Shown here one piece after another: positions 5,987 through 62,444 of a stretch of 64,000 nucleotides of DNA. Position 1 is the stretch's first letter; the number at the start of each line of letters is the position of its first letter. Under the pieces are notes generated by a model. The model saw only the letters and a program-made list of their open reading frames with translations, was not told the origin of the DNA and made no database searches. The position numbers and the translations under genes were made by a program. The stretch is from Cetorhinus maximus (taxonomy: Eukaryota). The DNA lies in contig NC_135901.1 in NCBI RefSeq assembly GCF_964194155.1, positions 28,024,001-28,088,000 of the forward strand. The letters are read 5' to 3'.

Positions 5987-7100
5987 TCACTTGTGAACTC
6001 ACTGGTGTGTGAACAGATGGGATAACCGAGTGAATCCCTTCCCACACTCAGAGCAGGTGAATGGCCTCTCCCCAGTGTGAACTCGCTCGTGCATCAGCAG
6101 GTTGGATGAGTGAGTGAATCCCTTCCCACACTTGGAGCAGATGAACGGCCTCTCCCCAATGTGAACTCGCTGGTGTGACAGGAGGTTGGATGAATCAGTA
6201 AATCCCTTCCCACACTCAGAGCAGGTGAATGGCCTCTCCCCAGTGTGAACTCGCTCGTGCATCAGCAGGTTGGATGAGTGAGTGAATCCCTTCCCACACT
6301 TGGAGCAGATGAACGGTCTCTCCCCAATGTGAACTCGCTGGTGTGACAGGAGGTTGGATAAATCAGTAAATCCCTTCCCACACTCAGAGCAGGTGAATGG
6401 TTTCTCCCCAGTGTGAACACGCTGGTTTCTCTGCAGGTTGGGTAACTGAGTGAATCCCTACCCACATGCAGAGCAGGTGAATGGCCTCTCCCCGGTGTGA
6501 ACTCGCAAGTGTTTCTGCAGGGTGGATGAATCAGTGAATCCCTTCCCACACTCGGAGCAGGTGAAGGGCTTCTCCCTGGTGTGAACACGCAAGTGTTTCA
6601 GAAGGGTGGATGAATCAGTGAATCCCTTCCCACACTCGGAGCAGGTGAAGGGCTTCTCCCTGGTGTGAACACGCAAGTGTTTCAGAAGGGTAGATGAATC
6701 AGTGAATCCCTTCCCACACTCGGAGCAGGTGAATGGCCTCTCCCCGGTGTGACTGCGTCGATGAGTTTCCAGCTGACATGGGTAACTGACTTCCTTCCCA
6801 CAATCCCCACATTTCCACGGTTTCTCCATGCTGTGGGTATCCTTGTGTCTCTCCAGGATCGACGATCAGTAGAACCCTCCTCCACACACAGAACACATGT
6901 ACGGTCTCTCCCTGCTGTGAATGGTGTGATTTTTTTTTAGACTGTCTAACTGGTTGAAGCTCCTTCCACAGTCAGTGCACTGGAACACTCTCACTTGGGT
7001 GTGTGTGTCTCAGTGCGTTTCCAGTCACACTGATGTTTGAGGCAAACAAAACAAACATTTCTCCTTCTAGATTCAAAGGCTGATAATATTCATGTCCCGG
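5987..7100 (-). pseudogene. C2H2 ZNF paralogue A (about 10 finger repeats; TAG after finger 4; exon 1 lost)
   Basis: ORFs 6458..6829 ([12 protein letters not shown]) and 5999..6262. TAG at 6458-6460 and TGA at 5999-6001. Leader cut by a Penelope-like element; 3' UTR cut by CR1. Confidence 0.85.
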
Positions 7101-7124
7101 TGAATCGAATGACAGGGAGGTTTT

Positions 7125-9509: not shown

Positions 9510-9974
9510 TTTCTAGTTTTGTAATATAGTACTGTAACTATGTTGTATATTTCTAGTCATATATTCATTACGACATAGAAGGAGTCAGTTCAGCAACTCA
9601 AGTCCCTGCCGACTCTGTAGAGTAATCCAGTCAGTCCCATTCCCCCTCTATATCCCCATTCCTGTGCAAGTTTAGTTCTTTCAAGTGCCCTTCCAATTTC
9701 ATTTTGAAATCATTGATCATCTCTGCTTCCACCACCCTCGTACACAGTGAGTTTCAGGTCTTCACAACTCGCTGCTGAAATACAGTTCTCCCTCACAGCC
9801 CCATGTGTCTCCAAACATGTAATAGAGTACCGTACATTTTAAGTGCAGTATGATTGGGTGTACGCTGGGTAGATTAGATTTATAATGGAGAGAGTGTAGC
9901 AGAGTGAGAATACAGGGACTGTGTGTGGGATGGAGATTTACAGCTTTTGGGGAACGAGAGAGGGTACAGTGTGC

Positions 9975-11712
9975 TATAAGCTGGAAGACGTAGGTAGGGT
10001 TCTAAATGTATACTTTATGTCGTTGTTTACAAGTGATAGGGGCGACGTGGGTTTGGAAATCAGGCAGAAGAACTGTGATATAATTAAAGAAATTAGCATT
10101 GAAAGGGAGGAGGTTCTAAGTGGTCTGACAGGATTAAGAGTAGATAAATCTCCAGGCCCGGATGAAATGTATCCCAGACTGTTGAGTGAGGCAAGGGAGG
10201 AGATAGCAGGGGCACTGGTAATAATTTTCAATACCTCTCTGGCCACAGGAGAGGTGCCAGAGGATTGGAGGACAGCCAATGGGGTACCGTTATTCAAGAA
10301 GGGAGGAAGGGATAAACCAGGGAACTACAGGCCAGTTAGTCTAACCTCAGTGGTGGGGAAACTATTGGAAGCAATTCTGAGGGACAGAATTAATCCACAC
10401 TTGGAGAGGCAGGGATCAATCAAGGACAGTCAGCATGGTTTTGTTCAGGGGAAGTCATGTCTGACCAATTTGATTGAATTTTTCGAAGAGGTGACCAGGT
10501 GTGTAGATGAGGGCAATGCATTTGACATAGTCTACTTGGACTTCAGCAAGGCTTTTGATAAGGTACCGCATGGGGGACTGATAATGAAGGTAAGAGCCCA
10601 TGGGATCCAAGGCAATTTGGCAAATTGGATCCAGAATTGGTTGAGCGTCAGGAAGCAGAGGGTGATGGTTGAGGGGTGTTTTTGTGACTGGATACCTGTG
10701 TCCAGTGGGGATCCATAGGGATTGGTGCTGGGTCCCTTGCTGTTTGTGGTGTATATAAACGATTTAGGCTTGAATGGAGGAGGGCTGATCAGTAAGTTCG
10801 TGGATGACACGAAAATTGTTGGGGTGGTAAATAGTGAGGAGGATAGCCTTAGATTACAGGAGGATATGGACGGGCTGGTCAGATGGGCTGATCAGTGGCA
10901 AATGGAATTTAATCCGGATAAGTGTGAGACGATGCACTTGAGCAGGACAAACAATGCACGGGAATACACGATGAATGGTAGGACCCTGGGAAGTACCAAG
11001 GATCAGAGGGACCTTGGTGTGCATGTCCACCGATCCCTTAACGTAGCGGGACAGGTAGATAAGGTGGGTAAAAAGCCATATGGGATCCTTGCCCTTATTA
11101 GCCAAGGCATAGAATATAAGAGCAGGGAGGTTATGCTGGAACTGTATAAAACGCTGGTTAGGCCACAGCTAGAGTATTGCATGCAGTTCTGGAATCTGCA
11201 TTGTAGGAAGAATGCGATTGCACGAGAGAGAGTGCAGAAGAGATTTACCAGGATGTTGCCTGGGCTGGAGAGTTTTAGTTGTGAGGAGAGATTGGATAAA
11301 CTGGGGTTATTTTCCCTGGAGCAGAGGAGATTGAGGGGGCACATGATTGAGGTGTATAAAATTATGAGGGGCATAGATAGGGTAGACAGGAAGGAACTTT
11401 TCTCCTTGGTGGATGGATCAATAACTAGGGGGCATAGATTTAAGGTAAGGGGCAGGTGGTTTAGAGGGGATGTGAGGAAGAATTTTTTCACCCAGAGGGT
11501 GGTGGGAATCTGGAACTCACTGCCTGAAAGTGTGGTAGAGGCAGAAACCCTCATAACATTTAAGAAGTATTTGAAGAGCACTTGCAATGCCACGGCATAC
11601 AAGGCTATGGGCTTAGTGCTGGAAAATGGGATTAAAATAGTTAGGTACTTGTTTGACTGGCGCAGACGCGATGGGCTGAAGGGCCTTTTTCTGTGCTCTA
11701 TGACTCTATGAG
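9975..11712 (+). mobile_element. 5'-truncated CR1 LINE (reverse transcriptase region), relatively young, in the intron of paralogue B
   Basis: ORFs 9921..10718 and 10722..11711 are in one frame, split by a single TAG. KSPGPD, NYRPVSLTS, YLDFSKAFD, FVDD motifs; tctatga tandem tail. Confidence 0.95.
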
Positions 11713-11783: not shown

Positions 11784-13610
11784 GATATGTGTATTTACAG
11801 TGGAAGATTTGCAGACATAAATCTCAAACCAAACGTCACATCAAGATCTGCCAAACTCATTTGATTAAATGGGACCTGAATATCATTGGTTCTTTGAACC
11901 AAGCAGGGGAAATGTTTGTCTGTTCTGTCTGCTTCAAAAGGTTTTAAGCCTCAGTGTGACTGGAAAAACACCGAGACACACATACCCAAGTGAGAGTGTT
12001 CCAGTGCACTGACTGTGGAAAGAGCTTTGACCGGTTACACAGCCTGAAAAAACATCACCATTCACAGCGAGGAGAGACTTATACATGTTCTGTGTGTGGA
12101 CAAGGCTTCAACTGATCGTCGGACCTGGAGAGACACAAGGGCACGAGCACCATGGATAAACCGTGGGAATGTGGGGACTGTGGGAAGGGATTCTGTTCCC
12201 CATCTCAGCTGGAAACTCATCGACGCAGTCACACCGGGGAGAGGCCGTTCATCTGTTCTGACTGTGGGAAGGGATTCACAGCCCCATATCAGCTGGAAAC
12301 TCATCGACGCAGTCACACTGGGGAGAGGCTGTTGACCTGCCCTGACTATGGGAAGAGTTTCACTCAGTTCTCCCGCCTGCAGAGGCACCAGTGAGTTCTC
12401 ACCGGGAAGTGGCCATTCACCTGCACTGAGTATGGCAAGATATTCAGACAGTTACCCAGCCTGCAGTCACACCATCGATTTCACACTGGGGAGAAGATGC
12501 CATTCCTCTGCTCTGTATGTGCAAAGGGATTCCCCCACTCATCCAGCCTGCTGACACACCAGCGAATTCACACTGGGGAGAGGCCATTCACCTACTCTGA
12601 ATGTGGGAAGGGATTCGGTAATTCATCTGACCTGCAGACACACAAAGGAGTTCACACTGGGGAGAGACCGTTCACCTGCTTTGAGTGCGGAAAAGGATTC
12701 AGTGATTCATTCAACCTGCTGCGACACCAGAGAATTCACATTGGGGAGAGGCCGTTCACCTGTTCCGAGTGTGGCAAGGGATTCACTCAATTATCCAATC
12801 TGCAATCACACCAGCGAGTTCACACCGGGGAGAGACCATTCACCTGCTTTGAATGTGGGAAGAGATTCAGTAATTCATCCGACCTGCAAAAACACAAACG
12901 AGTTCACACCAGGGAGAGGCAGTTCCGCTGCTCTGACTGTGGAAAGGGATTCAGCCATTCATTGAACCTGCTAACCCACCAGCGAGTTCACACCAGGGAG
13001 AGGCCGTTCACCTGCTCTGAATGTGGGAAGGGATTCACTCAGTTATCCAACCTGCTGACCCACCAGCGAGTTCACACCAGGGAGAGGCTGTTCACCTGCT
13101 CTGAGTGTGGGAAAGGATTCAGTGATTCATCCAACCTGCTGCGACATCAGCAAGTTAACACCGGGGAGAGGCCATTCACCTGCTCTGAGTGTGGGAAGAG
13201 ATCCAATCATTCATCCAGCCTGCAAAAACACCAGCGAGTTCACACTGGGCAGAGGCCATCCACCTGCTCCCTGTGTGGGAGGTGATTCACTCATTCATCC
13301 CACTAGCTAAGACACCAGCGAGTTCACAAGTGATTACAGGGGTTGGATTCTGCTGTTGTTGCTGCTGTTAATCACATCCAGGACTGAACCATGTTCATTG
13401 TGACACTTGGTGAAGTGGGAGGGTTGGAGGGTTCCTTCCTGCTGGACTGGCCGGTCTCATGACTTTGCTTCCAGTGGGCTGATGCTCTTTGAGCCTAGAA
13501 GTGCACATTTCCACTGAAATGATCCACAAAAGCTGATGAAGGACATTTATTTTGTTCTGGACAGTAAATAGTGTTTTTCCTACCACAACAGGTAGATCTG
13601 AAATAAATAC
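11784..13610 (+). pseudogene. C2H2 ZNF paralogue B exon 2 (about 14 finger repeats, disrupted)
   Basis: Acceptor tttacag at 11783; ATG at 12152; TGA at 12392-12394 and degenerate fingers; ORF 12497..13285 with about 9 fingers; family 3' UTR follows. Confidence 0.8.
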
Positions 13611-20259: not shown

Positions 20260-21210
20260 CCTGAAGCTACTGACTTTCGGGTTCAGTTTCACACTCACCT
20301 GTTGCCCTCCCCAATATGTCACCCAGGTGTCTAAGTCTTTACACCTTAAGTTAACAAACTGTTTTGCAAGGGTGGCGTCACAGTTAAATCCAGTGACAAC
20401 CCACATGTAATTTGTGTCAGGGTGGGGTCACTGCACCCCCCACCCTCACTTTTCACCTCAGTTCCGTGGGTTTGGAAACTGGGCTCCGGATGAGTAATGG
20501 CGGCCACAGCTCCCACAATAATCCGCGCTGGAGAAACCGCTCTATCCGCCGCGCTGTCGGGCGGCCCGGGACTGCACATGTCCGAGGAAGAGGGGAAGCA
20601 TGTGCTAGGGAGACGATGGACTGCGCATGTGAGCCTGCGGGTTTTTGGCATGAATGCGCATGTGCGGTGGTGAGGTGACCACAAATCCCGCGCTCTGATT
20701 GACCGGGAGATCATTGTCTATTCCATCTTCCAGCATTTCCCATTGGACAACAGCTCAGCGCAGCTGGCTAGCAAAATCTCTCCCACGTGGGGTTCCGCCT
20801 CTCATAGTCTTCAGGTGGGGAGTTGACCAATGGGAAGTCTGGAGAACCGGAAGAACGCTGGTCCTCCAGCCAATCAGAGCGCGGGCTTTGTGTGAATGAA
20901 GATTGAGTTTCACACAGACTAAAACTTCCTCCTGTGTCCAACATCTGTGAGTAAAACACTTTCTTTTCTCCCCCTTTCCATTTCTTTTCTCATTCTGGGG
21001 GGAAATTGTTGACTTGAAGAAAAAGGAAGTGAATCCAGGGAGGGAGCAGACTCTGGAAAGGTTGGCCCAGGTCTTTCTCTCTCTCTTAAAGATATTGACA
21101 TCCTTTGCTCCCTCAGCTTGACACTTTTATTTGTCTGGCTAAAAGGATGGTCTCTTTCCTCACGTTCACAATTAAAGGGGTGGTTTCCCCAGGAGATGGC
21201 TGACATTTAA
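20260..21210. promoter_or_regulatory. Bidirectional promoter core 3 (type C left, type A right)
   Basis: tgcgcatg NRF1-like sites, aatggcggc YY1-like site, several CCAAT boxes; donors near 20293 (-) and at 20947 (+). Confidence 0.7.
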
Positions 21211-21803
21211 GGGCACAGTAAATTAATATTGGACAGAGATATGTAGTGTATGTTATTTATGGTTCTTTAGTAACAGAGATAGAGTCATTACAGCACAGAA
21301 GGAGCTGACTAGCAATTCGAGTCCATGTTGACTCTCTACAGAGCAACCTAGTCAGTCCCATCCCCCCTCTATATCCCCCATCCCCTGCAAGTTTATTTCC
21401 TTCAAGTGCCCATCCAATTTCAATTTAAAATCATGAATCGCCTCCACTTCCACCACCCTCGTAGGAAGCAAGTTCCTGATCATGAAAAATCACTGCCTAA
21501 AAAAAATCTTCTTCAGATTTTCCCGATATCTCTGATCAGGAAATATGCTTATATGATGATTTTCACATCATGAACAGGAAGCAATGAATTTGCATCTGTC
21601 GATCAGCATGAATCAGCCCCTTCAGGAGAATTGGGAGGGTGTTAATTAGGTACAGCAGAGTGAGAATGGAGGAAGAGTGTGTGGGACGGAGGTTTAAACA
21701 TGTTGGGAACAAGTGAGGGATGAATGTTCCATAGAAACTGGAATTGTTTGATCTGGATTTCTATCCTGTCCTGACAGATGATTTTTGTAAACACTTTTTA
21801 CAG

Positions 21804-23120
<1,317 letters not shown>

Positions 23121-29433: not shown

Positions 29434-29924
29434 GGTGCGGGTGTCCTTGTGTCTCTCCAGGGCCGATGATCAGTTGAAGCTTCGCCCACACTGAGAACGC
29501 GTGTACAGTTGCCCCCCGTTGTGAACGTGGTGATGTTTTTTCAGTCTGTGTAACTGGTTAAAGCACTTTCCACAGTCAGTGCACTGGAAACACTCTCACT
29601 CGGGTGTGTGTGTGTGTGTGTCTCGGTGTTTTTCCAGTCACATTGATGTTTGAAATCTTATGAAGGAGACAGAACAAACATTTCTCCCAAATACAAAGGC
29701 TGATGATATTCAGAACTTGATGAATTGAGTGACCCTGTCAGAACTTGATGTGAAGTTTGGTTTCAGATTTATGTTTGCAAATCCTCCTCTTCTAATATCC
29801 TGTAAAAAGAATTTACAAAATCATCACTGTCAGTACAGGATAGAAATTCAGAACAGACAATTCTCTTTATTGTGGAACATTCTTTGCATTTTTTTTAATT
29901 CATTCATGGGGATGGGGGTGTTGC

Positions 29925-30460: not shown

Positions 30461-31129
30461 CCATTCTTGTAGCCACAAAAGCTGTAAATCTCCATCCCAC
30501 ACACACTCCCTCCATTCTCACTCTGCCGTACCTGATACACGCCCCCCAATTCTCCTGAAGGTGCCGACTCATGCTGACCAACAGATCCATGCTCACTGTT
30601 TCCTATCCTGGAAACAAAGAGATCTGAAGAACTTCATGCAGGCTGCCAGGCATATATATGACTGGACTAAAACTGTGGGTAATAAACAGTGCGTATCACT
30701 TGATTAGAGATACAGTGGGGGAAGTGAGGAAGAGATTTTATTAGGAAGCAAGTGGACATGACCTGGAACTAGCTGCCTATGAGGGTGTTGGAAGGGCAGA
30801 CGATTAATAATTTCAAAACAAAATTGGATGGATGAATGAAATCGATTTGAAGGAAATAAACTTGCAGGGGAACAGGGATATAGAGGAGAAATGGGACTGA
30901 CTGGATTGTTCTACAGAGAGTCAGCGTGGACTCGAATTGCTGAATGGACTCCTATTGTATCGTAATGACTCTTTTACTGGAAATATATAACGAAGCTACA
31001 GTGCTATATTATCAGACTAGTACTAATAATAAACATACTTTATTACAGAACCATAAATATTATATCTAATGTGTAACACATAACAACATTGGACATATCT
31101 CTGTCCTATATTAATTTACTGTCCCCTTA

Positions 31130-32120
31130 AATGTCATCCATCTCCTGGGGAAACCACCCCTTTAATTGTGAACATTAGGAAAGGGACCATCCTTTTAGCC
31201 AGACAAATAAATGTGTCAAGCTGAAGGAGCAAAGGATGTCAATGTCTTTAAGAGAGAGAGAGAGAGAGAGACCTGGGCCAACCTTTCCAGAGTCTGCACC
31301 CTCCCTGGATTCACTTCAGCTCCTGCAAGTCAACAATTTCCCCCCAGAATGAGAAAAGAAATGGAAAGGGGGAGAAAAGAAAGTGTTTTACTCACAGATG
31401 TTGGACACAGGAGGAAGTTTTAGTCTGTGTGAAGCTCAATCATCATTCACACAAAGCCCGCGCTCTGATTGGCTGGAGGGCCAGAGTCCTTCCGGTCCTC
31501 CGACTCTTCCCAATGATCAATCGCTCCGCATGCAGAAGGAAAGCGGGCGGGCTCTCCCCCGCACATGCGCAGTTTCCCCGTCCCGAGTTCTCTGAGTGGC
31601 TTCTCGCTCTGGCCGGAGCCGTCAGCCGGTTGCCTGGAAACCTTGGCTCGAGGTGGTGGAGGGGGAAGGGGAACAATGGGTTGGGGCGGGGCTCCCGTGT
31701 CCGCGCACCTGGCCTGCAGACTGGAACCTGAGGACGTCACCGCGGAGCAGAGTGATTCCTATTGGCTGATTCAGGCAGGGTTCCATTGTGGACGTCACAA
31801 TGCGGAGGTTGGACAATGAGCATCAGACCAAAACTTCCTCCTGTGTCCAACATCGGTGAGTAAATCAATATTTCCCCCTTTCCATTTCTTTTCTCATTCT
31901 GGCGGCAAATTGTTGACTTGCAGGAACTGAGGGGAAAGGAAGTGAATCCAGGGAGGTTGCAGACTCTGGAAAGATTGGCCCAGGTCTCTCTCTCTGTCTT
32001 AAATACATTGACATCCTTTGCTCCCGCAGCTTGACACATTTATTTGTCTGGCTAAAAGAATGGTCTCTTTCCTAATGTTCACAATTAAAGGGGTAGTTTC
32101 CCCAGGAGATGGCTGACATT
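31130..32120. promoter_or_regulatory. Bidirectional promoter core 4 flanked by ~300-bp inverted arms (type A left, type B right)
   Basis: 31130-31427 is the reverse complement of 31825-32120. Outward-facing GTGAGT donors at 31390-31395 (-) and 31856 (+). CCAAT, GC box, gacgtca and cacatgcgca motifs between them. Confidence 0.8.
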
Positions 32121-33177
32121 TAAGGGGGAAGTAAATGAATATAAGACAGGGGTATGTCTAGTTGTTATGTGATGCCTTGTCCATAGACTATTTAAGGCTT
32201 TATATAGTTCATTTATTCTTAGTTGTTGGCTTATAATATCGTATTGTAGCTACAGTTATATATTTCCAGTCAGAGTCATTATTGCAGGGATAGAGAATAT
32301 TCAGCAACTCTAGTCCATGCTGTAGAGAAATCTCGTCAGTGCCATTCCCTTCAACATCCCAGTTTATTTCCTTCAAGGGCCCCATCCAGTTTAATTTTGG
32401 AATCATTCATTGGCTCTGCTTCTGCCACCCTCATAGGCAGCGAGTTCCAGGCCATAAGCACTTGCTGCAGAATTAAAGTTTCACCTCATCCTCTCTGTAT
32501 TGCTAATCAGTAAATATACATATATATTTCTACACATAGATATTTAGGTTAGCAGCCTGCCTAAGATTTTCAGGTCTATGTGTCCAGGACAGGAAAAAAT
32601 GACCATGGATCTGTCGATCAGCATGAATCGGCACCTTCAGGAGAATTGGGAGGGTGTGCATTAGGTACAGCAGAATGAGAATGGAGGGCAAGTGTATGGG
32701 ACGGAGATTTATATTTGGGGAGCAAGAGAGGAAAGAATATCCCATATAAACTTGAATTGTCTCTTAATTTCTATCCTGTACTGACAGTGATGATTTTTGT
32801 AAATTCCTTCCACAGGATATTAGAAGGGGAAGATTTGCAGACAGAAATTTCAAATCAAGCTTCACTTCAAGATCTGACAGAGTCATTTGATTAATTGGGT
32901 CTTGAATATCACTGGCCCTTTGAACTGAGCAGGAGAAATGTTTGTCTGTTCTGTCTGCTTCAGAAGGTTTTAAGCTTCAGTGTGACTGGAAAAGAACCGA
33001 GAGAGACGCACCCGAGTGAGTGTTCCAGTGCACTGACTGTGGAAAGAGCTTTAACCAGACACACAGGCTGAAAAATCATTGCCCCATTCACAGTGGGGAG
33101 AGACCACAGTGTGTTTTGTGTGTGGATGAAGCTGCCTTTGATCATTGAATCTGGAGAGACACAAGGACACACGCACC

Positions 33178-39006: not shown

Positions 39007-40069
<1,063 letters not shown>

Positions 40070-41149: not shown

Positions 41150-41750
41150 ACAGACCGCAGGCCAGGCGCGCGGACACGGGAGCACCGCCCCCACCCATTG
41201 TTCCCCCTCCCCCTCCACCTCCTCGAGTCAAGGTTTCCAGGCAACCGGCTGACGGCTCCGGCCAGAGCGAGAAGCCGTTCGGGGAACTGGGGAGAGGGGA
41301 AGCTGCACATTTTGCGGGGGAGAGCCCGCCCCTTCCCTTCATGTTTAAAGATTGACCAATGGGAAGAGTTGGAGGACCTGAAGGATTCTGGTCCTCCAGC
41401 CAATCAGAGCGCGATCTTTGTGTGAATGAAGATTGAGCTTCACACAGACTAAAACTTCCTCCTGTGTCCAACATCTGTGAGTAAAACACTTTATTTTCTC
41501 CCCCTTTCCATTTCTTTTCTCATTCTGGGGGGAAATTGTTGACTTGCAGGAACTGAAGGGAAAGGAAGTGAATCCAGGGAGGGTGCAGACTCTGGAAAGG
41601 TTGGCCCAGGTCTCTCTCTCTCTCTTAAAGACATTGACATCCTTTGCTCCCTCAGCTTGACACATTTATTTGTCTGGCTAAAAGGATGGGCCCTTTCCTA
41701 ATGTTCACAGTTAAAGGGGTGGTTTCCCCAGGAGATGGCTGACATTTAAT
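41150..41750. promoter_or_regulatory. Promoter core 5 (inverted relative to core 4; type-B side truncated) with type-A exon 1
   Basis: Reverse complement of 31130-31720; donor gtgagt at 41477. Confidence 0.7.
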
Positions 41751-41933
41751 GGGACAGTAAATTGATATATGACTCGTGTCGTTACAAGATGCATATTTTA
41801 TATTTGTGTGGGACGGAGAATGACAGTTTTTACGGAACAAAAAAGGAAATAATGTTCCACAGTAATCAGAAATGCCTGCTCTGAATTTCTATCCTATACT
41901 GACAGTGATGCATTTTGTAAACTCCTTTTACAG

Positions 41934-43100
41934 GATATTAGAAGAGGAGGGTTTACAGACAGAAATCAAACGTCATGTCAAGATCTGACAGAGTCAATCG
42001 ATTGATCAGAACCTGAATATCATCAGTCATTGAATCTTGAAGGAGAAATGTTTGTCTGTTCTGTCTGCTTCAAAAGATTTGAAACGTCAGGTGAAAAGCA
42101 CTGAGACACACACACCCGAGTGAGAGTGTTCCAGTGGACTGACTGTGGAAAGAGCTTTCACCAACTACACAGACTGAAAAATCATCACACCATTCACAGC
42201 AGGGAGAGACCATACACATGTTTTGTGTGTGGATGATTCTTCAGCTTCAGCAGTTCAAGAAGGCAGCTCACCACCACGTTGTGAAGGGCAACGAGGGATG
42301 GGCAATAAATGCTGGCCAAGGCAGCGACGCCCACAGCCCATCAATGAATTTTTTAAAATTGTCTAACCTGGAGAGATACAAAGGGCATCTGCACCATAGT
42401 GAAACCGTGGAAATGTGTGAACTGTGGGAAGGGGTTCAGATTCCCGTCTCAGCTGGGAATTCACCAACACAATCACTATGGGGAGAGGCTATTCACCTGC
42501 TTAGAGTGTGGGAAGGGATTCACTCATTCATCCTCCCTGCTGAGACACCAGCGCATCCACACCGGGGAGAGGCCGTTCACTTGCTCTGAGTGTGGGAAGA
42601 GATTCACTCAGTTATGTAACCTGCAGACACACCAACGGGTTCACACTGGAGAAAGGCCAGTCACCTGCTCTCAGTGTGGGAAGAGATACACTCAGTCATC
42701 CACCCTGCTGACACACCAGCGAATTCACACTGGGGAGAGGCCATTCATCTGTTCTGAATGTGGGCAGGGATTCACTCGGTCAACCTACCTGCTGAGACAC
42801 CAGCGAGTTCACAAATGATTCCAGGGGTCAGATTCTGCTGTGATAGCTGCTGTTAATCACATGCAGGACTGAACCATGTTCATTCTGACACTTGGTGAAG
42901 TGGGAGGGTCGGTGGGTTTCTTTCTGCTGGACTGGCCGGTCTTACGAGTTTGCTTTCAGTGGGCTGATGCTCTTTGAGCCTCGGAGTGCACATTTCCACT
43001 GAAATGATCCACAAAAGCTAATAAAGTACATTTATTTTATCCTGGACAGTAAATAGTGTTTTTCCTACCACTACTGGTAGATCCAAAATAAATACATTTG
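41934..43100 (+). pseudogene. C2H2 ZNF paralogue G (5 fingers; ATG changed to ATA; LINE fragment in leader)
   Basis: ORF 42399..42818 starts at GTG; insertion at 42245-42350. Confidence 0.7.
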
Positions 43101-48111: not shown

Positions 48112-50621
48112 CCCACAGTCCGAGCAGGCTGGTTAACCGAGTGAATCCCTTCCTACACTCAGAGCAGGCAAACGGCCTCGCCCCGGTGTGACCCTGTTGA
48201 TGTGTCAGCAGGTAGGATGAAAGAGTGAATCCCTTCCCACACATGGAGCAAATGAAGGGCCTCTCTCCAGTGTGAACTTGCCGGTGTGTCTGCAGATGGG
48301 ACGACCGAGCGAATCCTTCCCACATCGAGAGCGGGTGAATGGTCTTTTCCAGTGTGAACCTGTTGGTGTGTCAGCAGGTGGGATAACTGAGTGAATCCCT
48401 TCCCGCACTCAGTGCAGGTGAACGGCCTGTCCCCGGTGTGAACTACCTGGTGTGCCACTAGGTAGGATGACTGAGTGAATCCTTTCCCACACTCAGACCA
48501 GGTGAACGGCCTCTCCCCGGTGTGAAATACTTGGTGTGCCACTAGGTGGGATGACTGAGTGAATCCCTTCCCACACACAGAGCAGGTGAATGGCTTCTCC
48601 CTGGTGTGAGTTACCTGGTGTGCCACTAGGTGTGTAGACTGAGTGAATGCCTTCCCACAATCAGAGCAGGTGAATGGCCTCTCCTTGGTGTGAGCTACCT
48701 GGTGTGCCATTAGGTGGGATGACAGAGTGAATCCCTTCCCACACACAGAGCAGGTGAATGGCTTCTCCCTGGCGTGAGTTACCTGGTGTGCCACTAGGTG
48801 TGTAGACTGAGTGAATGCCTTCCCACAATCAGAGCAGGTGAATGGCCTCTCCTTGGTGTGAGCTACCTGGTGTGCCATTAGGTGGGATGACAGAGTGAAT
48901 CCCTTCCCACACACACAGCAGGTGAAAGGCCTCTCCCTGGTGTGAACTGCCTGGTGTGCCACGAGATGGGATGACTGAGTGAGTGAATCCCTTCCCACAC
49001 TCGGAGCAGGTGAATGGCTTCTACTTGGTGTGAACTATCTGGTGTGCCACTTGGTGGAATCACTGAATGAATCCCTTCCCACACTCAGAGCAGATGAATA
49101 GCTTCTCCATGGTGTGAACTGCCTGGTGTGCCACAAGGTGGGATGACTGAGTGAATCCCTTCCCACAAACAGAGCAGGTGAACGGCCTCTCCTCAGTGTG
49201 AACTACCTGGTGTGCCACTAGGTGCACAGACTGAGTGAATCCCTTCCCACACACAGAGCAGGTGAACGACCTCTCCCAGGTGTGAACTGCCTGGTGTGCC
49301 ACTTGGTGGGATGACTGAGTGAATCCCTTCCCACACTCAGAGCAGGAGAACAGCCTCTCCCCAGTGTGGACTACCTGGTGTACCAGTAGGTGGGATGACT
49401 GAGTGAATTCTTTCCCACATTCAGAGCAGATGAATGGCTTCTCCCTGGTGTTAACTACCTGGTGTGCCACTAGGTGGGATGAATGCGTGAATCCTTTCCC
49501 ACACACAGAGCAGGTGAGCAGCCTCTCCCTGGTGTGAGCTATCTGGTGTGCCAGTAAGTGTAATGGATTACTGAATCCCTTCCCACACACAGAGCAGATG
49601 TGCGGCCTCTCCCTGGTGTGAGCTATCTGGTGTGCCACTAGGTGGGATGACTGAGTGAATACTTTCTCACACACAGAGCAGGTGAGCGGCCTCTCCCTGG
49701 TGTGAGTGATCTGGTGTGCCACTAGGTGTGAGTAATGAGTGAATCCCTTCCCACACACAGGGCAGGTGAATGGCCTCTCCCCGGTGTGAATGTGTTGATG
49801 AGTTTCCAGCACAGATGTGGTTTGGAATCCCTTCCCACCGTCCCCACATTTCCAGTTTCTCCATGATGCGTGTGCCCTTGTGTATCTCCATGTCTGTTGA
49901 TCAATTGGTGCCTTGTCCACACACAACACATATGTGGTGTCTCCCCTTTGTGAATGGTGTGATGTTTTTTCAGTCTGTTTAACTGATGACAGCTGTTTCC
50001 ACAGTCGGTGCACTGGAACACTCTCACTCGGGTGTGTATGTCTCGGTGCTTTTCCAATCACACTGATGTTTGAAACATTTTGAACCAGACAAAACAGACA
50101 ATCATCTCTCCTTCTAGATTCAAAGGCCAATGATATTCAGGTCCTGATGAATCAAGTAACTCTGGCAGATGCTAACATGAATTTTGGTTTGAGAATTTCT
50201 AGCACAGACGGATTCTGGAATCCCTTCCCACAGTCCCCACATTTCCATGGTTTCTCCATGGTGTGGGTGTCCTTATGTCTTCTCTGTGTTTGATAATCAG
50301 TTGAAGCCTCATACATGCACAGAACACATGTACAGTCTCTCCCCGCTGTGAATGGTGTGATTTTTTTTTCAGGCTGTGTAACTGGTTAAAACTCTTTCCA
50401 TAGTCAGTGCACTGGAACACTCTCACTCGGGTGTGTGTGTCTCAGTGCCTTTCCAATCACACCAATGTTTAGAATCTTTCCCCACAGACAGAACAGCCAA
50501 ACGTTTCTCCACATTCAAAGGTCAATTATGTTCAGGCCCTGATGAATTGAATGACACTGTGAGAGCTTGATGTGATTTTTGGTTTGAGATTTTTGTCTGC
50601 AAATCCTCCCCCTCTAATATC
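48112..50621 (-). pseudogene. Long C2H2 ZNF paralogue H (about 20 finger repeats, duplicated leader, frameshifted)
   Basis: ORFs 49060..50130, 48159..48998 and 48047..48325; repeated QSSHLVAHQ helices; indels near 49855, 48980 and 48345. Confidence 0.85.
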
Positions 50622-51339
50622 CTGCAAAAGGAGTTTACTGTCAGTACAGGATAGAAATTCAGAATCGATAATTCTAGTTTCTATGAAACATTCTTTCCTC
50701 TCCTGTTCCCCAAAACCTGTAAATCTCTGTCCCACACACTCTCCCTCCAATCTCACTCTGCTGTACCCAATATACAACCTCCCAATTCTCTTGAAAGTGC
50801 AAATTCATCCCGATTGGCAGATCCATGTTCAGCACTGTTAGTCCAGCAAACAGAGCTGTGAGCCATATGGATGAACACATTAGAGGAGTTCAAATGTTGT
50901 AATGTAATATAACATGCATTGCATGATTAGAGGTATGGGGGGATGCAAGAAACAACATTATTTAGGAGTGAGTGATCATGACCTGAAATTCAGTGTGTCT
51001 GTGGATGGTGGAACTGGAGATGATCATTGATTTCAGAATGAAATTCGATGGACACTTGATGGAAATACACTTGCAGGGGAACGGGGATATCAAAGGGGAA
51101 TGGGACTGACTGGATTCTTCCACAGAGAGTTGGCATGAACTTGAGTTGTCGAATTAACTCCTTCTGTGCAGTAATGACCCTCTGACTGGAAATATATACA
51201 CAGCTACAGTCTTATACTACAAAACTGGAAAGGATAATAAATGAATTTAATTACAGGACTACAAATAATATATCTAAACTGTTCCCTATCATAACATTAG
51301 ACATATCTCTGTCCTTTATTAATTTACTGGCCCCTTAAA

Positions 51340-52340
51340 TGTCAGCCATCTCCTGGGGAAACCACTCCTTTAATTGTGAACATTAGGAAAGAGACCATTC
51401 TTTTAGCCAGACAAATAAATGTGTCAATCTGAGGGAGCAAAGGATGTCAATGTCTTTAAGAGAGAGAGAGAGAGAGACCTGGGCCAACCTTTCCAGAGTC
51501 TGCACCCTCCCTGGATTCACTTCCTTTCCCTTCAATTCCTGCAAGTTAACAATTTCCCCCCAGAATGAAACAAGAAATGGAAAGGGGGAGAAAAGAAAGT
51601 GTTTTACTCACAGATGTTGGTCACAGGAGTAAGTTTTAGTCTGTGTGAAGCTCAATCTTCATTCACACAAAGCCCGCACTCTGATTGGCTGGAGGACCAG
51701 GGGCCTTCCTCTTCTTCAACCCTTTTCATTGGTCAACCTCTCAGCATGATGGGAAGGGGGCGGGCTAAACGCCACACATGCGCAGCTTCTCCTCTCCCGT
51801 GTTCTCTGTGCGGCTTTTCGCTCTGGCCGGAGCCGCCAGCCAGTTGCCTGGAAACCTTGGCTCGAGGAGGTGGAGGGGGAAAAATGGATGGGGGCGGGGC
51901 TCCCGTGTCCGCGCGCCTGGCCTGCAGACTGGAACCCGAGGACGTCACCGCGGAGCAGAGTGATTCCTATTGGCTGATTCAGGCAGGGTTCCATTGTGGA
52001 CGTCACAATGCGGAAGTTGGACAATGAGCTTCAGACTAAAACTTCCTCCTTTGGCCAACATCTGTGAGGAAATCAATGTTTCCCCCTTTCTATTTCTTTT
52101 CTCATTCTGGGGGCAAATTATTGACTTGCAAGAACTGACAGGAAAGGAAGTGAATCCAGGGAGGGTGCAGACTCTGGAAAGGTTGGCCCAGGTCTCTCTC
52201 TCTCTCTCTCTCTTAAAGACATTGATATCCTTTGCTCCTTCAGCTTGACACATTTATTTGTCTGGCTAAAAGGATGGTCTCTTTCCTAATGTTCACAATT
52301 AAAGGGGTGGTTTCCCCAGGAGACGGCTGACATTTAAGGG
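51340..52340. promoter_or_regulatory. Bidirectional promoter core 6 with inverted arms (type A left, type B right)
   Basis: Direct copy of 31130-32120; donors at 51606-51611 (-) and 52064 (+). Confidence 0.8.
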
Positions 52341-53297
52341 GACAGTAAAATAATACAGGGCAGAGATTTGTCTAGTGTTGTTTTATGGTACATATTAAAT
52401 GTTCTATTTCCACTTCTCTAATAAAATATATGTGTTATTATTTCTAGCCCTGTAATATAGTGCCACAGCTATGTTACATATTTCCAGTCATAGAGTCATT
52501 ACAGCCCTGAAGGAATCCATTTGGCAATTCAAGTCCTTGTCCACTCTCTGTAGAGCAATCTGGTCAGTCCTGTTCCCTATCTATATCCCTGTTCCCCTGC
52601 AGGTTTAATTCCTTCAAGTTCATTTTGAAACCACTGATTGTCTCCACTTCCACCAGTCAATGAGTTCTCGGTCTAGCGGCCTGCACGAAGATTTTCAGGA
52701 CTCTGTGTTCTGCACAAGAACCACTATTTGTGGATCAGCATGAATCGGCACCTTCAGGAGAATTGGGAGGGTGTATATTAGGTACAGCAGAGCGAGAATG
52801 GAGGGAGAGTGTGTGGGGCAGAGATTTACAGCTTTTGGTCAATGAGAGAGGAAAGAATGTGCCATAGAAACTAGAATTGTCTGTTCTGAATTTCTATCCT
52901 GTACTGACAATGATGACTTTTGTAAACTTCTTTTATAGGATATTAGAAGGGGAAGATTTGCAAACAGAAATCTCAAACCAAACATCACGTCAAGATCTGA
53001 CCGAGTTGGTCAATTCATCGGGAGCTGAATATCAATGGTCTTTGAAGCTAGAAGGAGAAATGTTTGTCTGTTCTGTCTGCTTCAGAAGGTTTAAAAATCA
53101 ATGTTATTGAAAAAGCACTGAGACACACACACCCGAATGAGAGTGTTCCAGTGTACTGACTTTGGAAGGAGCTTTAACCAGTTACGCAGCCTGAAAAAGC
53201 ATCCCCATTTACTGCAGCGGGAGGGGCTGTACACATGCTCTGTGTGTGGACCACTCAGTTGATCATGAATCTTAAGAGACCCAAGGACACCTGCAGC

Positions 53298-57769: not shown

Positions 57770-58200
57770 GTATTGTGTACAGTTCTGTGCACCACACTTT
57801 TGGAAAGATGTGAACACATTGGAGAGAGTACGGAAGAGGTTTACAAGGATGGTTCCAGGGATGAGAAACTTCAGCTATGAAGATAGATTGGTGAAGTTGG
57901 GACTGTTATCCTTGGAGTGGAGAAGGCTAAGAAGAGATTTGATTGAAGTGTTAATGAGGGGTGTCATGAGGGGTCTGGACAGAGTAGATAGGGAGAAACT
58001 GTCCCTGCTCATAAAAGGATCGAGAACAAGAGGGCACAGATTGAAAGTGATTTGCAAAAGAAGCAAATGTGATGTGAGAAAAAAGCTTTTTCACACAATG
58101 AGTGGTACAGGTCTGGAATGCTCTGTCTGGAAGTGTGATGGAGGCAGGTTCAATCGAGACATTCAAGAGGGCATTAAATGATTATTTGAACAGAAACAGT
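57770..58200 (+). mobile_element. CR1 LINE 3' fragment
   Basis: ORF 57726..58181 YCVQFCAPHF...RFTRMVPG. Confidence 0.85.
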
Positions 58201-58720
58201 GTGAAGTCGCTGATGGGTCAGTCAGCTGATTGAATCTGTAAACCACTTTCCACATGGAACGGGTGAATGGCCTCTCCCTCTCCTCAGTGTGAAGTCACTG
58301 ATGGGTCAGTCAGCTGATAGAACCTGTAAACCGCTTCCCACCTGGAGCAGGTGAATGGCTGTTCCTCAGTGTGAACACGTATCCAACTCAGATGGGGATC
58401 AGAATCCCTTTGCACTGTCCCAATATTGCCACGGTTTTTCTGGAATAGATGTGTCCTTGAGTCTGTCCAGTTGGATGATCAGTTTAAGCCTTGACAAGAC
58501 ACCAACCATGGATCATTGATATCTTTTCCAACAGACAGAAGAGTGAACTATTTCTCTTTCTAGGTTCAAAAACCAATGATATTCAGAAACTGATGAATCG
58601 AGTGACTGTCAGATTTTGATGTATTATCTGTTTTGAGTTTCCTGTCTCTAAATCCTCCCTCTCCAATACACTGTAAGGGGAGTTTACAAAGAAATCACTC
58701 TAACGACAGGATCGAAATTC
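58200..58720 (-). pseudogene. Heavily decayed ZNF paralogue (left partner of J)
   Basis: Reverse-complement matches to the exon-2 leader (58545-58670) and finger remnants (gagcaggtgaatggc). Confidence 0.6.
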
Positions 58721-58859
58721 AGAACTGACAATCCTGGTTATCAACAAACATCCTTCTCCCATTCAAACTATGAATCTCTGCCCGACACACTCCTTCCTCT
58801 CTATTGATTGAAATACTAGTTCATCCTACTATCCTCCTCCCACTTTCCCCCAATTCTCC

Positions 58860-59715
58860 TCCTCTGAAGGTGCAGACTCTCGGGTTCAGTTTCACACTCA
58901 CCTATTGCCCTCCCCAATATGTCACCCAGGTGTCCAAATCTTTACACCTGAAGTTAACAAACTGTTTTGCTAAGGGGGCGTCACAATCAAATCCAGTGAC
59001 TACCAACATGTACTTTGTGTCAGGGCGGGGTCACTCCGGCCCCCGACCCCACTTTCCATCCCAGTCCCAGGAGTTTGGAGACTGGGCTCCGGATGAGTAA
59101 TGGCGGCCGAAGATCCCACAATCCACAGCGTTGGGGAAACCGCTCTATCCGCCGCGGCAGCGGGAGGCCCGGGACTGCGCATGTCCAGGAAAGAGGGGAC
59201 AACTGCGCATGTGCGGAGAGTGGCGTTTGGCCTGCCGCTCAACTCACCGTGGGGGGTCAGAGGGTCTCCCGCGTCCGCGAAGGCTTCCGCTGCCCCATTG
59301 TCTTTATGCGGGAGATTGACCAATGGGGAGAACTGGAGGGCAGGAAGGACTCTGGTCCTCCAGCCAATCAGAGCGCGGGCTTTGTGTGAATGAAGAGTGA
59401 GCTTCACACAGTCTAAAATTTCCTCCTGTGTCCAACATCTGTGAGTAAAACACTTTCTTTTCTTCCCCTTTCCATTTCTTTTCTCATTCTGGGGGGAAAT
59501 TGTTAACTTGCAGGAACTGAAGGGAAAGGAAGTGAATCCAGGGAGGGTGCAGACTCTGGAAAGGTTGGCCCAGGTCTCTCTCTCTCTCTCTTAAAGACAT
59601 TGACATCCTTTGCTCCCTCAGCTTGACACATTTATTTGTCTGGCTAAAAGGATGGTCTCTTTCCTAATGTTCACAGTTAAAGGGGTGGTTTCCCCAGGAG
59701 ATGGCTGACATTTAA
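58860..59715. promoter_or_regulatory. Bidirectional promoter core 7 (type C left, type A right)
   Basis: CpG-rich; two tgcgcatg sites, aatggcggc, two CCAAT boxes; donors near 58897 (-) and at 59441 (+). Confidence 0.75.
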
Positions 59716-59947
59716 AGGAACAATAAATTAGTATTGGACATAGCTCTGTCTAGTGTTGTTTTATGGTACATATTAGATATATTATTGATGGTTCTAGAAT
59801 TAAATACATTTATTATTATTTCTAGTCTTATAATATAGCAATGTAACTACGTTATATATTTCCAGTTGTAGAGTCATTACGGCACTGATTGAGTCCATTC
59901 GGAAACTTGAGTCCATGCCGACTCTCTGTAGAGTACGCCAGTCAGTC

Positions 59948-60665
59948 TAGTAAACCTTCTCTGAACTGCTTCCAATGGAAGTATATACCCCCTTAAAGAA
60001 GGAGGCCAGAACTGCACACAGTACTCTAGGTGTGGTCTCACCGATATCCTGTGCAGCTACAGGAAGACTTCCCTACTTTTATACTCCATCTCCCTTGCAA
60101 TAACGGCCGACATTCCAGTTGCCTTTCTCATTACTTGCTGTACCTGCAGACTGACTTTTTGTGATTAGTGTCCAAGGACACCCAGATCCCTCTGTACTGC
60201 AGCATTCTGCAGTCTCCCTCAATTAAATAATGCTCTACTTTTCTATTCTTCCTGCCAAAGTGGACAATCTCACATTTTCACACATTATATTCCATCTTCC
60301 AATATTTTTCTCCCTCACTAAACCTATTGCTATCCCTTTATGGACTCTTTGTATCCTCCTCACAACTTGCTTTCCTATCTATCGTTGTATCATTGGCAAA
60401 TTTGGCTACAATACAGTCAATTCCTTCATCCAAGTCATTGATATGAATTGTAAATAGATGGGGCCCCAGGACTGATCCCTGCAGGACTGTGGAGCCTCAG
60501 TCATTAAATATATTCAAGACAGAGAGTGATATATTTCTAGATATTGAAGATATCAAGGGATATTTGGGATAGTGCGAGAAAATGGTGCCGAGGTAGATCA
60601 GCCTTGATCTCATTGAATGGCCGAGCAGGCTCAATGGGCCGACTGGTCTACTCCTGTTCCTATTT
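59948..60665. mobile_element. CR1 fragments in the intron of J (59948-60482 minus, then a plus-strand 3' end)
   Basis: Reverse complement resembles 5400-5850; the second piece is a CR1-type 3' tail. Confidence 0.7.
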
Positions 60666-61268
60666 CTTATGATATCTGTGTCCTGGACAGGAAGCAGTGA
60701 GAGTAGATCTGTCGATCAGCATGAACCTTCAGGAGAATTGGGAGGGTGTATGTTAGGTACAGCAGAGTGAGAATGTAGAGAGAGAGAGTGTCTTTGGAGA
60801 AATGAGAGAGGAAAGAATGCTCCATACAAACGAGAATTGTCTGTTCTGAACTTCTATCCTGTACTGACAATGATGCCTGTTGTGAATTCCTTTTACAGGA
60901 TACGAGAAGGGGAGAAGATTTACAGACAGAAATCTGAAATCAAAGGTTAAGATCTCACATAGTCACTCAATTTATCAGAACCTGAATATGATCAGCTTTT
61001 GAATTTAGAAGGAGAAATGTTTGTCTGTTCTGTCTGCTTGAAAAGATTTTAAACATCAGTGTGACTGGAAAAGCACCGAGACACACACACCCAAGTGAGA
61101 GTGTCCAAGTGCACTGACTGTGGAAAGCACTGTGGAAAGAGCTTTAACCAGTTACACAGCCTGAAAAAACATCACCATTCACAGCGGAGAGAGACCGTAC
61201 ATGTGTTCTGTGTGAGGACAAGGCTTCAACTGATCATCAAACCTGGAGAGACACAAGGACACCGAACC

Positions 61269-62444
61269 ATGGAGAAACCGTGGAAATGTGGGGACTGTGG
61301 GAAGGGATTCAAAGCCCCCTCTGAGGTGGAAACTCATCGGCGCAGTCACAATGGAGAGAGACCATTCATCTGCTCTAAGTGTGGGAAGGGATTTGCTCGG
61401 TTACAACACCTACAGTCACACCAGCGGGTTCACAATGGGGAGAGGCCATTCACCTGCTCCGTGTGTGGGAAGGGATTCACTCGGTTAACCAGCCTGAAGA
61501 CACACCAACGAGTTCACACTGGGGAGAGGCCGTTCACTTGCACCGTGTGTGGGAAGGGATTCACTCGGTTGAACAACTTGCAAACACACCAGCGAATTCA
61601 CACTGGGGAAAGGCCCTTCACCTGCTCTCACTGTGGGAAGGGATTCACTCACTTATACAACCTGCAAACACATCAGCGAATTCACAGCGGGGAGAAGCCG
61701 TTCACCTGCTCCGTGTGTGGGAAGAGATTCACTCGGTTAAACAACTTGCAGACGCACCAGCGAATTCACACTGGGGAGAAGCCATTCACCTGCTCCGTGT
61801 GTGGGAAGGGATTCACTCGGTTAACCAGCCTGCAGACACATGAGCAAATTCATACTGGGGAGAAGCTGTTCACCTGCTCTCAGTGTGGGAAGGGATTTAC
61901 TCGGTTACCCAACCTACTCACTCATCAGCGAGTTCACACCGGGGAAAGACCATTCACCTGCTCCGTGTGTGGGAAGGGATTCACTCGGTCATCCAGCCTG
62001 CTGACACACCAGCGGGTTCACACTGAGAGGCCGGTCACCTGCTCTGAGTGTGGGAAAGGATTCACTGAGTTCTGCAGACTGCAGGCACACCAGCGAATTC
62101 ACACCGGGGAGAGGCTGTTCACCTGTTCTGATTGTGGGAAGGGATTCACTTGGTTATCCCAGCTGCGGACACACCAGCGAACTCACACTGGGGAGAGGCC
62201 GTTCACTTGCTCTGACTGTGGAAAGGGATTCACTCAGTCATTCAACCTGTTGCTGCACCAGCGACTTCACACTGGGGCGAGGCCGTTTACCTGCCCTCAA
62301 TGTGCGATTGGATTCACTCAGTCATCCCACCTGCTGAGGCACCAGCGAGTTCACACTGGGGAGAGGCCATTCACCTGCTCTGAGTGTGGGAAGAGTTTCA
62401 CTCAGTCATCCCACCTGCAGACACACCAGCGAGTTCACAGATGA
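61269..62444 (+). CDS. Tandem C2H2 zinc-finger protein J, 14 fingers, no effector domain seen
   Basis: Intact ORF from accATGg ([14 protein letters not shown]); acceptor at 60898. Confidence 0.92.
   Translation: MEKPWKCGDCGKGFKAPSEVETHRRSHNGERPFICSKCGKGFARLQHLQSHQRVHNGERPFTCSVCGKGFTRLTSLKTHQRVHTGERPFTCTVCGKGFTRLNNLQTHQRIHTGERPFTCSHCGKGFTHLYNLQTHQRIHSGEKPFTCSVCGKRFTRLNNLQTHQRIHTGEKPFTCSVCGKGFTRLTSLQTHEQIHTGEKLFTCSQCGKGFTRLPNLLTHQRVHTGERPFTCSVCGKGFTRSSSLLTHQRVHTERPVTCSECGKGFTEFCRLQAHQRIHTGERLFTCSDCGKGFTWLSQLRTHQRTHTGERPFTCSDCGKGFTQSFNLLLHQRLHTGARPFTCPQCAIGFTQSSHLLRHQRVHTGERPFTCSECGKSFTQSSHLQTHQRVHR

What the first reader, a model, noticed from the sequence alone, without database searches (positions are those of the whole stretch)
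60899..61268. 5' leader made of three fossil zinc fingers with TGA stops shared across paralogues
Seen: upstream of each MEKPWKC start, exon 2 has the consensus MFVCSVCFKRF.TSV*LEKHRDTH...[23 protein letters not shown]...[21 protein letters not shown]. The first TGA (gtgTGActgg-like) is present in A, B, C, D, E, both H leaders and J. The second (ttcaacTGAtc-like) is present in nearly all. They fall at helix positions +3 and -1. Inference: an ancestor lost three N-terminal fingers (probably CGA to TGA), restarted at an ATG in a linker, and the family expanded afterwards. The old ATG (ggagaaATGttt) persists in most copies as an 11-15 codon uORF that could limit translation.
Basis: partly seen in the sequence, partly recalled or inferred. 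Interest (0 to 1): 0.7.

Follow-up and report, generated by a model that had tools for sequence, protein, structure and literature searches.

The report
Dead zinc fingers in shark leaders
Hundreds of shark zinc-finger genes carry three broken fingers in the untranslated front of their RNA; the shared stop codons are likely inherited from a single ancestral gene and the stretch now drifts freely, so it is an ordinary fossil rather than a preserved control switch.

Summary
Observation confirmed. The consensus of 129 neighbouring copies reads as a 40-codon acidic stretch plus three C2H2 fingers, closed by two family-wide TGAs and a younger, local TAA, ahead of an optimal-Kozak MEKPW start. Exact matches genome-wide: first TGA 514 vs CGA 8 vs TGG 7; second TGA 103 vs CGA 0. 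Spliced contigs join exon 1 to this exon, so it is in the mRNA. Named shark proteins end exactly at these stops (sawshark and horn shark at the first, white shark at the second), so the first likely predates living sharks' radiation. A sister subfamily keeps CGA and an open third finger. The regulatory idea fails its own test: leader omega 0.96 (0.87-1.06); the upstream ATG survives in 87 of 124 copies, lost 20 times vs about 20 expected; the leader diverges faster than intron and 3'UTR; the TGAs are kept no better than out-of-frame or intronic TGAs. The 'old ATG' is probably an internal Met, since the frame is open from the acceptor. Verdict: neutral coding-to-UTR fossil amplified with the family. 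This scan reported the same on other windows.

The parts
59390..59440 (+). 3' part of exon 1 of gene J (5' end not mapped); holds an out-of-frame 8-codon uORF, 59390-59416
   Evidence: donor CT|GTGAGT; spliced join to the leader exon seen on paralogue L041; translation
59441..60898 (+). intron; first ~290 bases are a block far more alike among local paralogues than the rest of the gene; LINE-like pieces further on
60899..61016 (+). start of last exon: fossil acidic, Ser-rich 40-codon stretch, open and in finger frame in the consensus (frameshifted in J)
61017..61088 (+). fossil finger 1; ATG 61017 opens an 11-codon uORF ending at TAA 61050-61052; TGA 61062-61064 at helix +3
61104..61182 (+). 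fossil finger 2 (12-base duplication and 2-base deletion in J)
61198..61268 (+). fossil finger 3; TGA 61231-61233 at helix -1; last His absent
61269..62444 (+). present [10 protein letters not shown] start in ACCATGG context, 391 aa, 14 C2H2 fingers, no other domain seen
6830..7113 (-). paralogous leader A (5' part replaced)
11784..12151 (+). paralogous leader B
21804..22164 (+). paralogous leader C (main ATG mutated to ACG)
29434..29799 (-). paralogous leader D
32816..33177 (+). paralogous leader E
39709..40069 (-). paralogous leader F (TGG at first stop site)
41934..42246 (+). paralogous leader G (interrupted in finger 3)
49865..50621 (-). tandem double leader H (50621-50260 and 50196-49865)
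52939..53297 (+). paralogous leader I (TTA at first stop site; type-2 exon 1 with in-frame ATG)

Best explanation
The leader is a dead piece of former coding sequence that sits in the spliced mRNA and drifts without measurable constraint; it was likely killed once, in an ancestor of living sharks, and then copied with the family. Inferred steps: a gene whose last exon began with an acidic 40-codon stretch and three fingers, and whose start lay in an upstream exon, acquired two TGAs (the second from CGA) and an optimal-Kozak ATG in the linker after finger 3; ribosomes would reach that ATG by leaky scanning or reinitiation past a few short uORFs. Shown: after expansion each copy gathered substitutions and frameshifts at the local neutral rate, so the stops look 'conserved' only because they are ancestral and TGA is a slowly mutating triplet here. 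A sister lineage solved the same loss differently: fingers 1-2 deleted, finger 3 open, new ATG in front of it.
For: Tree-based omega for the leader 0.96 (0.87-1.06; 725 synonymous, 1941 nonsynonymous events, 119 copies) against 0.52 (0.40-0.78) for the first 14 CDS codons; consensus-based 0.91 and 0.43. Frame kept across the fingers in only 53 of 119. uATG kept in 87 of 124 (35th percentile of 316 background triplets), 26 of 39 in genes with six or more fingers; lost 20 times vs 19.8 expected, background median 15. The two TGAs lost 13 and 9 times, six out-of-frame TGAs 7-11 times; intronic TGAs kept at 0.84-0.89 in 4 of 5 sites. Divergence from consensus: leader 0.118, adjacent intron 0.096 (63 of 107 genes with alignable intron, leader higher in 46), 3'UTR 0.062 (83 copies). 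Exon 1 joined to the acceptor in 12 contigs of run X7 and one joint in X3. P0125 (Pristiophorus japonicus) and P0131 (Heterodontus francisci) end at ...FQTSV, P0133 (Carcharodon carcharias) at ...GQGFN. Sister subfamily CGA. None of 35 library hits to the acidic stretch shows it running open through three fingers into an array (29 inspected, 3 are repeat-type hits).
Against: No open-leader ancestor was found, so the coding past rests on the open consensus frame and the sister subfamily. On the tree the MEKPW ATG itself was lost 12 times (30th percentile), so with many pseudogenes in the sample the test for a single kept codon is weak. Genes with six or more fingers have fewer out-of-frame uORFs overlapping the start (9 of 36 vs 32 of 70, Fisher p 0.057, copies not independent). 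One subset (31 loosely defined type-2 genes) gave omega 0.69 (0.53-0.93) over the fingers, one of many comparisons and not corrected for shared ancestry. The intron comparison kept only well-aligning introns, which favours low intron divergence. The RNA runs are only guessed to be RNA, come from coded organisms and are contigs; no ribosome data.
Confidence: 0.85

Rival explanations
1. Distributed translational throttle: no single codon matters, but the long leader with several short uORFs holds output of these many DNA-binding proteins low, and selection keeps only the property (short uORFs, none overlapping the start).
For: Mean 3.3-3.6 ATGs in the leader exon, only 1 of 106 copies has none; an ATG within 70 bases of the exon-1 donor in 109 of 115; trend against overlapping uORFs in intact genes, p 0.057. 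Translating tandem fingers causes ribosome collisions and mRNA decay in zebrafish (PMC11620358, passages read), which gives a possible reason.
Against: Intact and broken copies have similar uATG numbers (3.3 vs 3.6); the finger-1 uATG is lost at the neutral rate; no null simulation of uATG counts was run; the sister subfamily has no such fossil fingers.
Confidence: 0.1
2. The stops are recoded (readthrough, selenocysteine or A-to-I editing to Trp), giving N-terminally extended proteins.
For: First TGA is followed by CTG; TGG occurs at that site in 7 genomic copies and in P0123, P0132.
Against: Frameshifts in 66 of 119 copies, a TAA in 79 of 120, zinc ligands lost in 13-49% of copies, omega near 1; stops lie at base-contact positions, not Cys positions, apart from a lineage-specific one.
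Confidence: 0.02
3. A long uORF from the in-frame ATG of type-2 exon 1 (about 70 codons, acidic peptide) is the surviving N-terminal product and works in trans.
For: 22 of 27 type-2 exons have the ATG at -56 in frame with the leader; a Scyliorhinus torazame model, P0127, starts the same way.
Against: Only 8 of 22 reach 70 codons; frame kept 14 of 31 vs 24 of 49 in type 1, omega 0.75 (0.48-1.13); this exon was found near only one small group of the leaders sampled elsewhere in the genome (10 hits in 5 of 60 loci); start of transcription unmapped.
Confidence: 0.03

Closest known systems
Lineage-specific tandem C2H2 ZNF expansions, e.g. cyprinid FiNZ-ZNFs (PMC10547256; abstract and two passages read)
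   Same: Hundreds of clustered paralogues, all fingers in one exon, many broken copies, among retroelements.
   Different: No N-terminal accessory domain is translated from the predicted start; what lies in front is dead. The paper does not mention sharks (0 hits).
Human ZNF252 and other ZNFs with degenerate domains in untranslated parts (PMC2865497; passages read)
   Same: Broken KRAB exons in the 5' region, translation from within the last exon, degenerate fingers left in a UTR after a stop.
   Different: There it is a single gene and the dead fingers are 3'; here the dead fingers are 5' and were amplified into a whole subfamily present across shark orders.
Conserved regulatory uORFs (ATF4/GCN4 type; recalled, not from a call)
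   Same: Short ATG-stop frames some 200 bases ahead of the main start, a spacing that allows reinitiation.
   Different: Those keep their ATG and spacing across species; here the ATG is lost at the neutral rate.
Sister 'MEGKST' shark ZNF subfamily (seen here; Heterodontus P0020, P0030, P0035)
   Same: Same exon start and acidic stretch, same finger 3 and following finger.
   Different: Fingers 1-2 absent (144 bases shorter, a 10-base piece matching finger 1 left), finger 3 open with CGA and its last His, start ATG before finger 3, unrelated intron.

Membership tests
Tandem C2H2 (Kruppel-type) ZNF gene family | Array of CxxC-x12-HxxxH fingers with TGE(R/K)P-type linkers in one exon | tested here: met
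   14 fingers in 61269-62444; Pfam zf-C2H2 on the fossil fingers
Tandem C2H2 (Kruppel-type) ZNF gene family | Clustered paralogues in birth and death | tested here: met
   127 leaders in 864 kb; 39 of 127 with six or more fingers after an intact ATG, some cut by tile edges
KRAB / SCAN / FiNZ-ZNF | N-terminal effector domain encoded ahead of the fingers | tested here: not met
   Read-through leader gives only zinc-finger-type Pfam matches at useful E-values; exon 1 was translated but not scanned against Pfam
Degenerate (fossil) coding sequence in a UTR | Recognisable domains with stops and frameshifts, no codon-level constraint | tested here: met
Degenerate (fossil) coding sequence in a UTR | Present in the spliced transcript ahead of the start | tested here: met
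   exon 1-leader join in contigs of two runs guessed to be RNA
Degenerate (fossil) coding sequence in a UTR | An intact relative in which the same stretch is coding | tested here: inconclusive
   finger 3 is open in the sister subfamily; no record with all three fingers open
Conserved regulatory uORF | uATG kept above the neutral rate | tested here: not met
   87 of 124; 20 losses vs 19.8 expected
Conserved regulatory uORF | uORF is translated and lowers main-ORF output | not testable with these tools
   needs ribosome profiling and reporters
Programmed stop readthrough / recoding | Frame and amino acids conserved on both sides of the stop | tested here: not met
   frame kept in 53 of 119; omega 0.94 over fingers

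The most novel reading that the evidence does not exclude
A single truncation in the ancestor of living sharks turned the front of a zinc-finger gene into a 360-base, uORF-laden leader, and that leader works as a shared translational brake that made the mass expansion of bare DNA-binding finger proteins tolerable; selection acts on the count and placing of uORFs, not on any codon.
Probability: 0.1. Interest if true: 0.6.

Novelty: new variant of a known kind. Interest (0 to 1): 0.27.

Why it matters
As a fossil it is a dating mark: the shared stops tie at least 514 copies here, and genes in sawshark, horn shark, white shark and catshark, to one truncated ancestor, and split shark ZNFs into two subfamilies that lost their front end in different ways. 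It explains why automated shark gene models wander through this stretch in shifting frames. It also suggests that a large vertebrate ZNF expansion arose from a gene that had already lost its N-terminal part. It is not evidence of a new control device; it would matter more only if the leader proved to be a selected brake.

Tried and rejected
Homologue search with the whole read-through leader was swamped by long finger arrays (useful only for a few Heterodontus hits). The same search with the acidic stretch found 2 unnamed fragments; finger 1-2 region found 1 protein among 18 candidates. ESM Atlas gave no usable hit (no evidence either way). Run search listed no holder on record as RNA; depth tables were not used, as contigs cannot rank parts; one search showed no splice joint among listed rows because finger repeats filled the table; the DNA-type run X20 showed no such join among listed rows, but the tables are cut. 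Raw Nei-Gojobori pN/pS of 0.65 in the leader looked like constraint but rose to about 1 after correcting for the mutation spectrum. High TGA retention as a sign of selection: rejected by out-of-frame and intronic TGAs. CGA and TGG copies as basal survivors: none of 15 is open and CGA copies scatter on a weakly supported tree. Exon-1 in-frame ATG as the family's original start: not shown. P0142 may come from the window's own genome and was not counted as independent. Rows dropped: 2 of 129 very divergent hits; 8 more lacking an end; 24 loci picked by similarity or by stop allele were kept out of the unbiased counts. The 41 leaders from other regions were partly picked by TGA- or CGA-bearing patterns, so their stop counts are biased. 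Paper searches (listings and abstract starts) found no description of this leader; the library lacks most subscription papers and no supplements were read.

Full report
Setting. The window is G000:C24:28024001-28088000 of a 4.0-Gb genome; its closest named protein relatives are from sharks. It holds a run of C2H2 zinc-finger genes in alternating orientation among LINE-like repeats. The finding is the first 370 bases of the last exon of gene J.

Check of the observation. The acceptor, uATG (61017), TGA (61062), TGA (61231) and MEKPW ATG (61269) are where stated. To avoid picking by similarity I took four 200-kb blocks and the window: 129 leaders, 127 after dropping two very divergent hits. Their consensus, from the acceptor on, reads as 40 open codons (ILEGEDLQ...PLNLEGE), then MFVCSVCFKRF*TSV*LEKH..., finger 2, and ...[24 protein letters not shown]. 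So there are three stops, not two, and the frame is open well before the 'old ATG'. First TGA 101 of 125, second 102 of 118, TAA 79 of 120. No copy of 119 is open and in frame. Genome-wide exact matches: first site TGA 514, CGA 8, TGG 7; second site TGA 57 vs CGA 0 and, with a shorter pattern, 103 vs 0; reversed-pattern controls 0. Most listed matches lie along the 65-Mb contig C24. A DNA search met 3358 first-look candidates, of which 40 were scored, so the family may run to thousands, but only the counts above are shown.

It is in the mRNA. Laid on paralogue L041, 12 contigs of run X7 carry the exon-1 end directly before the acceptor, and run X3 has a joint from the donor to the exon. These runs are guessed to be RNA and come from coded organisms. 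Loose-end consensus lines in X3, X7 and X14 contain the second TGA and in X7 the first.

History. In 41 leaders from other regions (partly picked by stop allele) finger 1 mostly has CAA (28) where the local cluster has TAA, while both TGAs dominate (31 and 35), and 24 carry another TGA at the first Cys of finger 2: the two TGAs are family-wide, the others younger. The same genome holds a sister subfamily with the same exon start but beginning MEGKST..., lacking fingers 1-2, with finger 3 open; at the second stop it has CGA in 5 of 9, and CGG, TGA, CAA, TAC once each. This supports CGA>TGA there. For the first stop neither CGA nor TGG can be chosen. A profile of the acidic stretch found 35 of 1.84 billion representatives; 20 were looked up, 16 are named and all 16 are sharks. 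P0125 (Pristiophorus japonicus) and P0131 (Heterodontus francisci) end at FQTSV, P0133 (Carcharodon carcharias) at GQGFN, i.e. at the two stops; the stop letters themselves were not seen. Heterodontus P0063 and P0035 read through the second site in a shifted frame as QLI, which spells the TGA. Sawsharks and horn sharks fall in the two main shark divisions (own knowledge), so the first stop likely predates crown sharks; the second is shown only in galeomorph records. Against: Heterodontus P0020 has FNRSS and Scyliorhinus P0123 has W at the first site, single copies that may be reversions or survivors.

Selection. After correcting for the mutation spectrum, omega in finger frame is 0.91 (0.77-1.08) against the consensus and 0.96 (0.87-1.06) on a tree, the same on inner and tip branches, while the first 14 coding codons give 0.52 (0.40-0.78). 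Frame is kept in 53 of 119; zinc ligands survive in 51-87% of copies vs 92-94% for the first two coding Cys. The uATG is kept in 87 of 124, no better in genes with six or more fingers (26 of 39), and was lost 20 times against 19.8 expected. The TGAs are kept somewhat above average, but so are the six out-of-frame TGAs and 4 of 5 intronic TGAs. The leader differs from its consensus by 0.118, the adjacent intron by 0.096 (63 of 107 genes), the 3'UTR by 0.062 and the first-intron block by 0.031. Results against neutrality: fewer overlapping out-of-frame uORFs in intact genes (9 of 36 vs 32 of 70, p 0.057) and omega 0.69 in one subset; and the MEKPW ATG, kept in 108 of 120 (96th percentile by count), is not distinguished on the tree (12 losses), which shows the limited power of single-codon tests among pseudogenes.

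How it likely works. Shown: J's spliced leader would hold four ATGs ahead of the start, giving frames of 8, 4, 11 and 4 codons; the MEKPW ATG has optimal context in nearly all copies, the finger-1 ATG has G at -3 but T at +4. Inferred from general knowledge of scanning: ribosomes pass or translate these short frames and reinitiate at MEKPW; the stops lie in the last exon, so junction-dependent decay would not be triggered by them. Any damping is a by-product. The original start is unknown: type-2 exon 1 has an in-frame ATG in 22 of 27 genes, also in a catshark model (P0127), but only 8 reach finger 1's stops, and that exon was found in only 5 of 60 loci from other regions.

Comparison. Tandem ZNF expansions are well known (PMC10547256, abstract and passages). 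Dead domains in ZNF UTRs are known, e.g. ZNF252 (PMC2865497, passages). The whale shark genome paper mentions C2H2 enrichment only generally (PMC8455134, passages); PMC10208646 adds nothing on this (passages). Six searches found no account of this leader. Earlier notes of this scan reached the same reading on other windows; my reading was formed before that call.

Verdict. Real, family-wide and old, but passive: a new variant of a known kind, interest 0.27.

Noticed in passing
window 59441-59730 and paralogues (41349-41763, 51293-51761, 31082-31531, 20803-21254): A ~290-base block at the start of the first intron differs from its consensus by only 0.031 among 115 local paralogues, far less than leader or 3'UTR; it holds splice-like signals, and Scyliorhinus model P0126 uses part of it as an exon. 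Found in only 5 of 60 loci from other regions. Selection or gene conversion.
   Followed up: partly
window 31082-32162 and 51293-52382: Head-to-head gene pairs with two kinds of exon 1/promoter (about 75 vs 38 of 115 copies) around a shared GC-rich stretch.
   Followed up: partly
window exon 1 of genes I (donor 52064) and B (donor 8502); L041:2287-2342: Type-2 exon 1 has an ATG 56 bases before the donor, in frame with the fossil leader (22 of 27); candidate older start or long uORF, not conserved in length.
   Followed up: yes
window 49865-50621 (-); also L046, L077, L093, L102: A lineage with two leaders in tandem; the first MEKPW ATG becomes a strong upstream start and is mutated in 2 of 5 copies, including L077 with a 735-aa ORF.
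   Followed up: partly
L124, L128, L144, L145, L147, L165: Sister MEGKST subfamily: same exon start, fingers 1-2 missing, a 10-base piece matching finger 1 at the junction; some copies (L121, L122, L131) lack finger 3 too.
   Followed up: yes
window 58197-58728 (-): A twelfth, much more decayed leader and finger remnant (about 71-78% alike to J), with most of fingers 1-3 deleted.
   Followed up: partly
L162, L164, L166, L167, L169, L171, L172, L174, L175: Near-identical gene blocks repeated at many places along C24:0.9-17 Mb: very recent large duplications or assembly repeats.
   Followed up: no
window 9900-11711 (+): Long reverse-transcriptase-like frames of a LINE, broken by one stop, inside the intron of gene B.
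   Followed up: no
P0035, P0063, P0123, P0030, P0005: Public shark gene models run through this leader in shifted frames or fuse neighbouring genes; many are probably annotation artefacts.
   Followed up: partly
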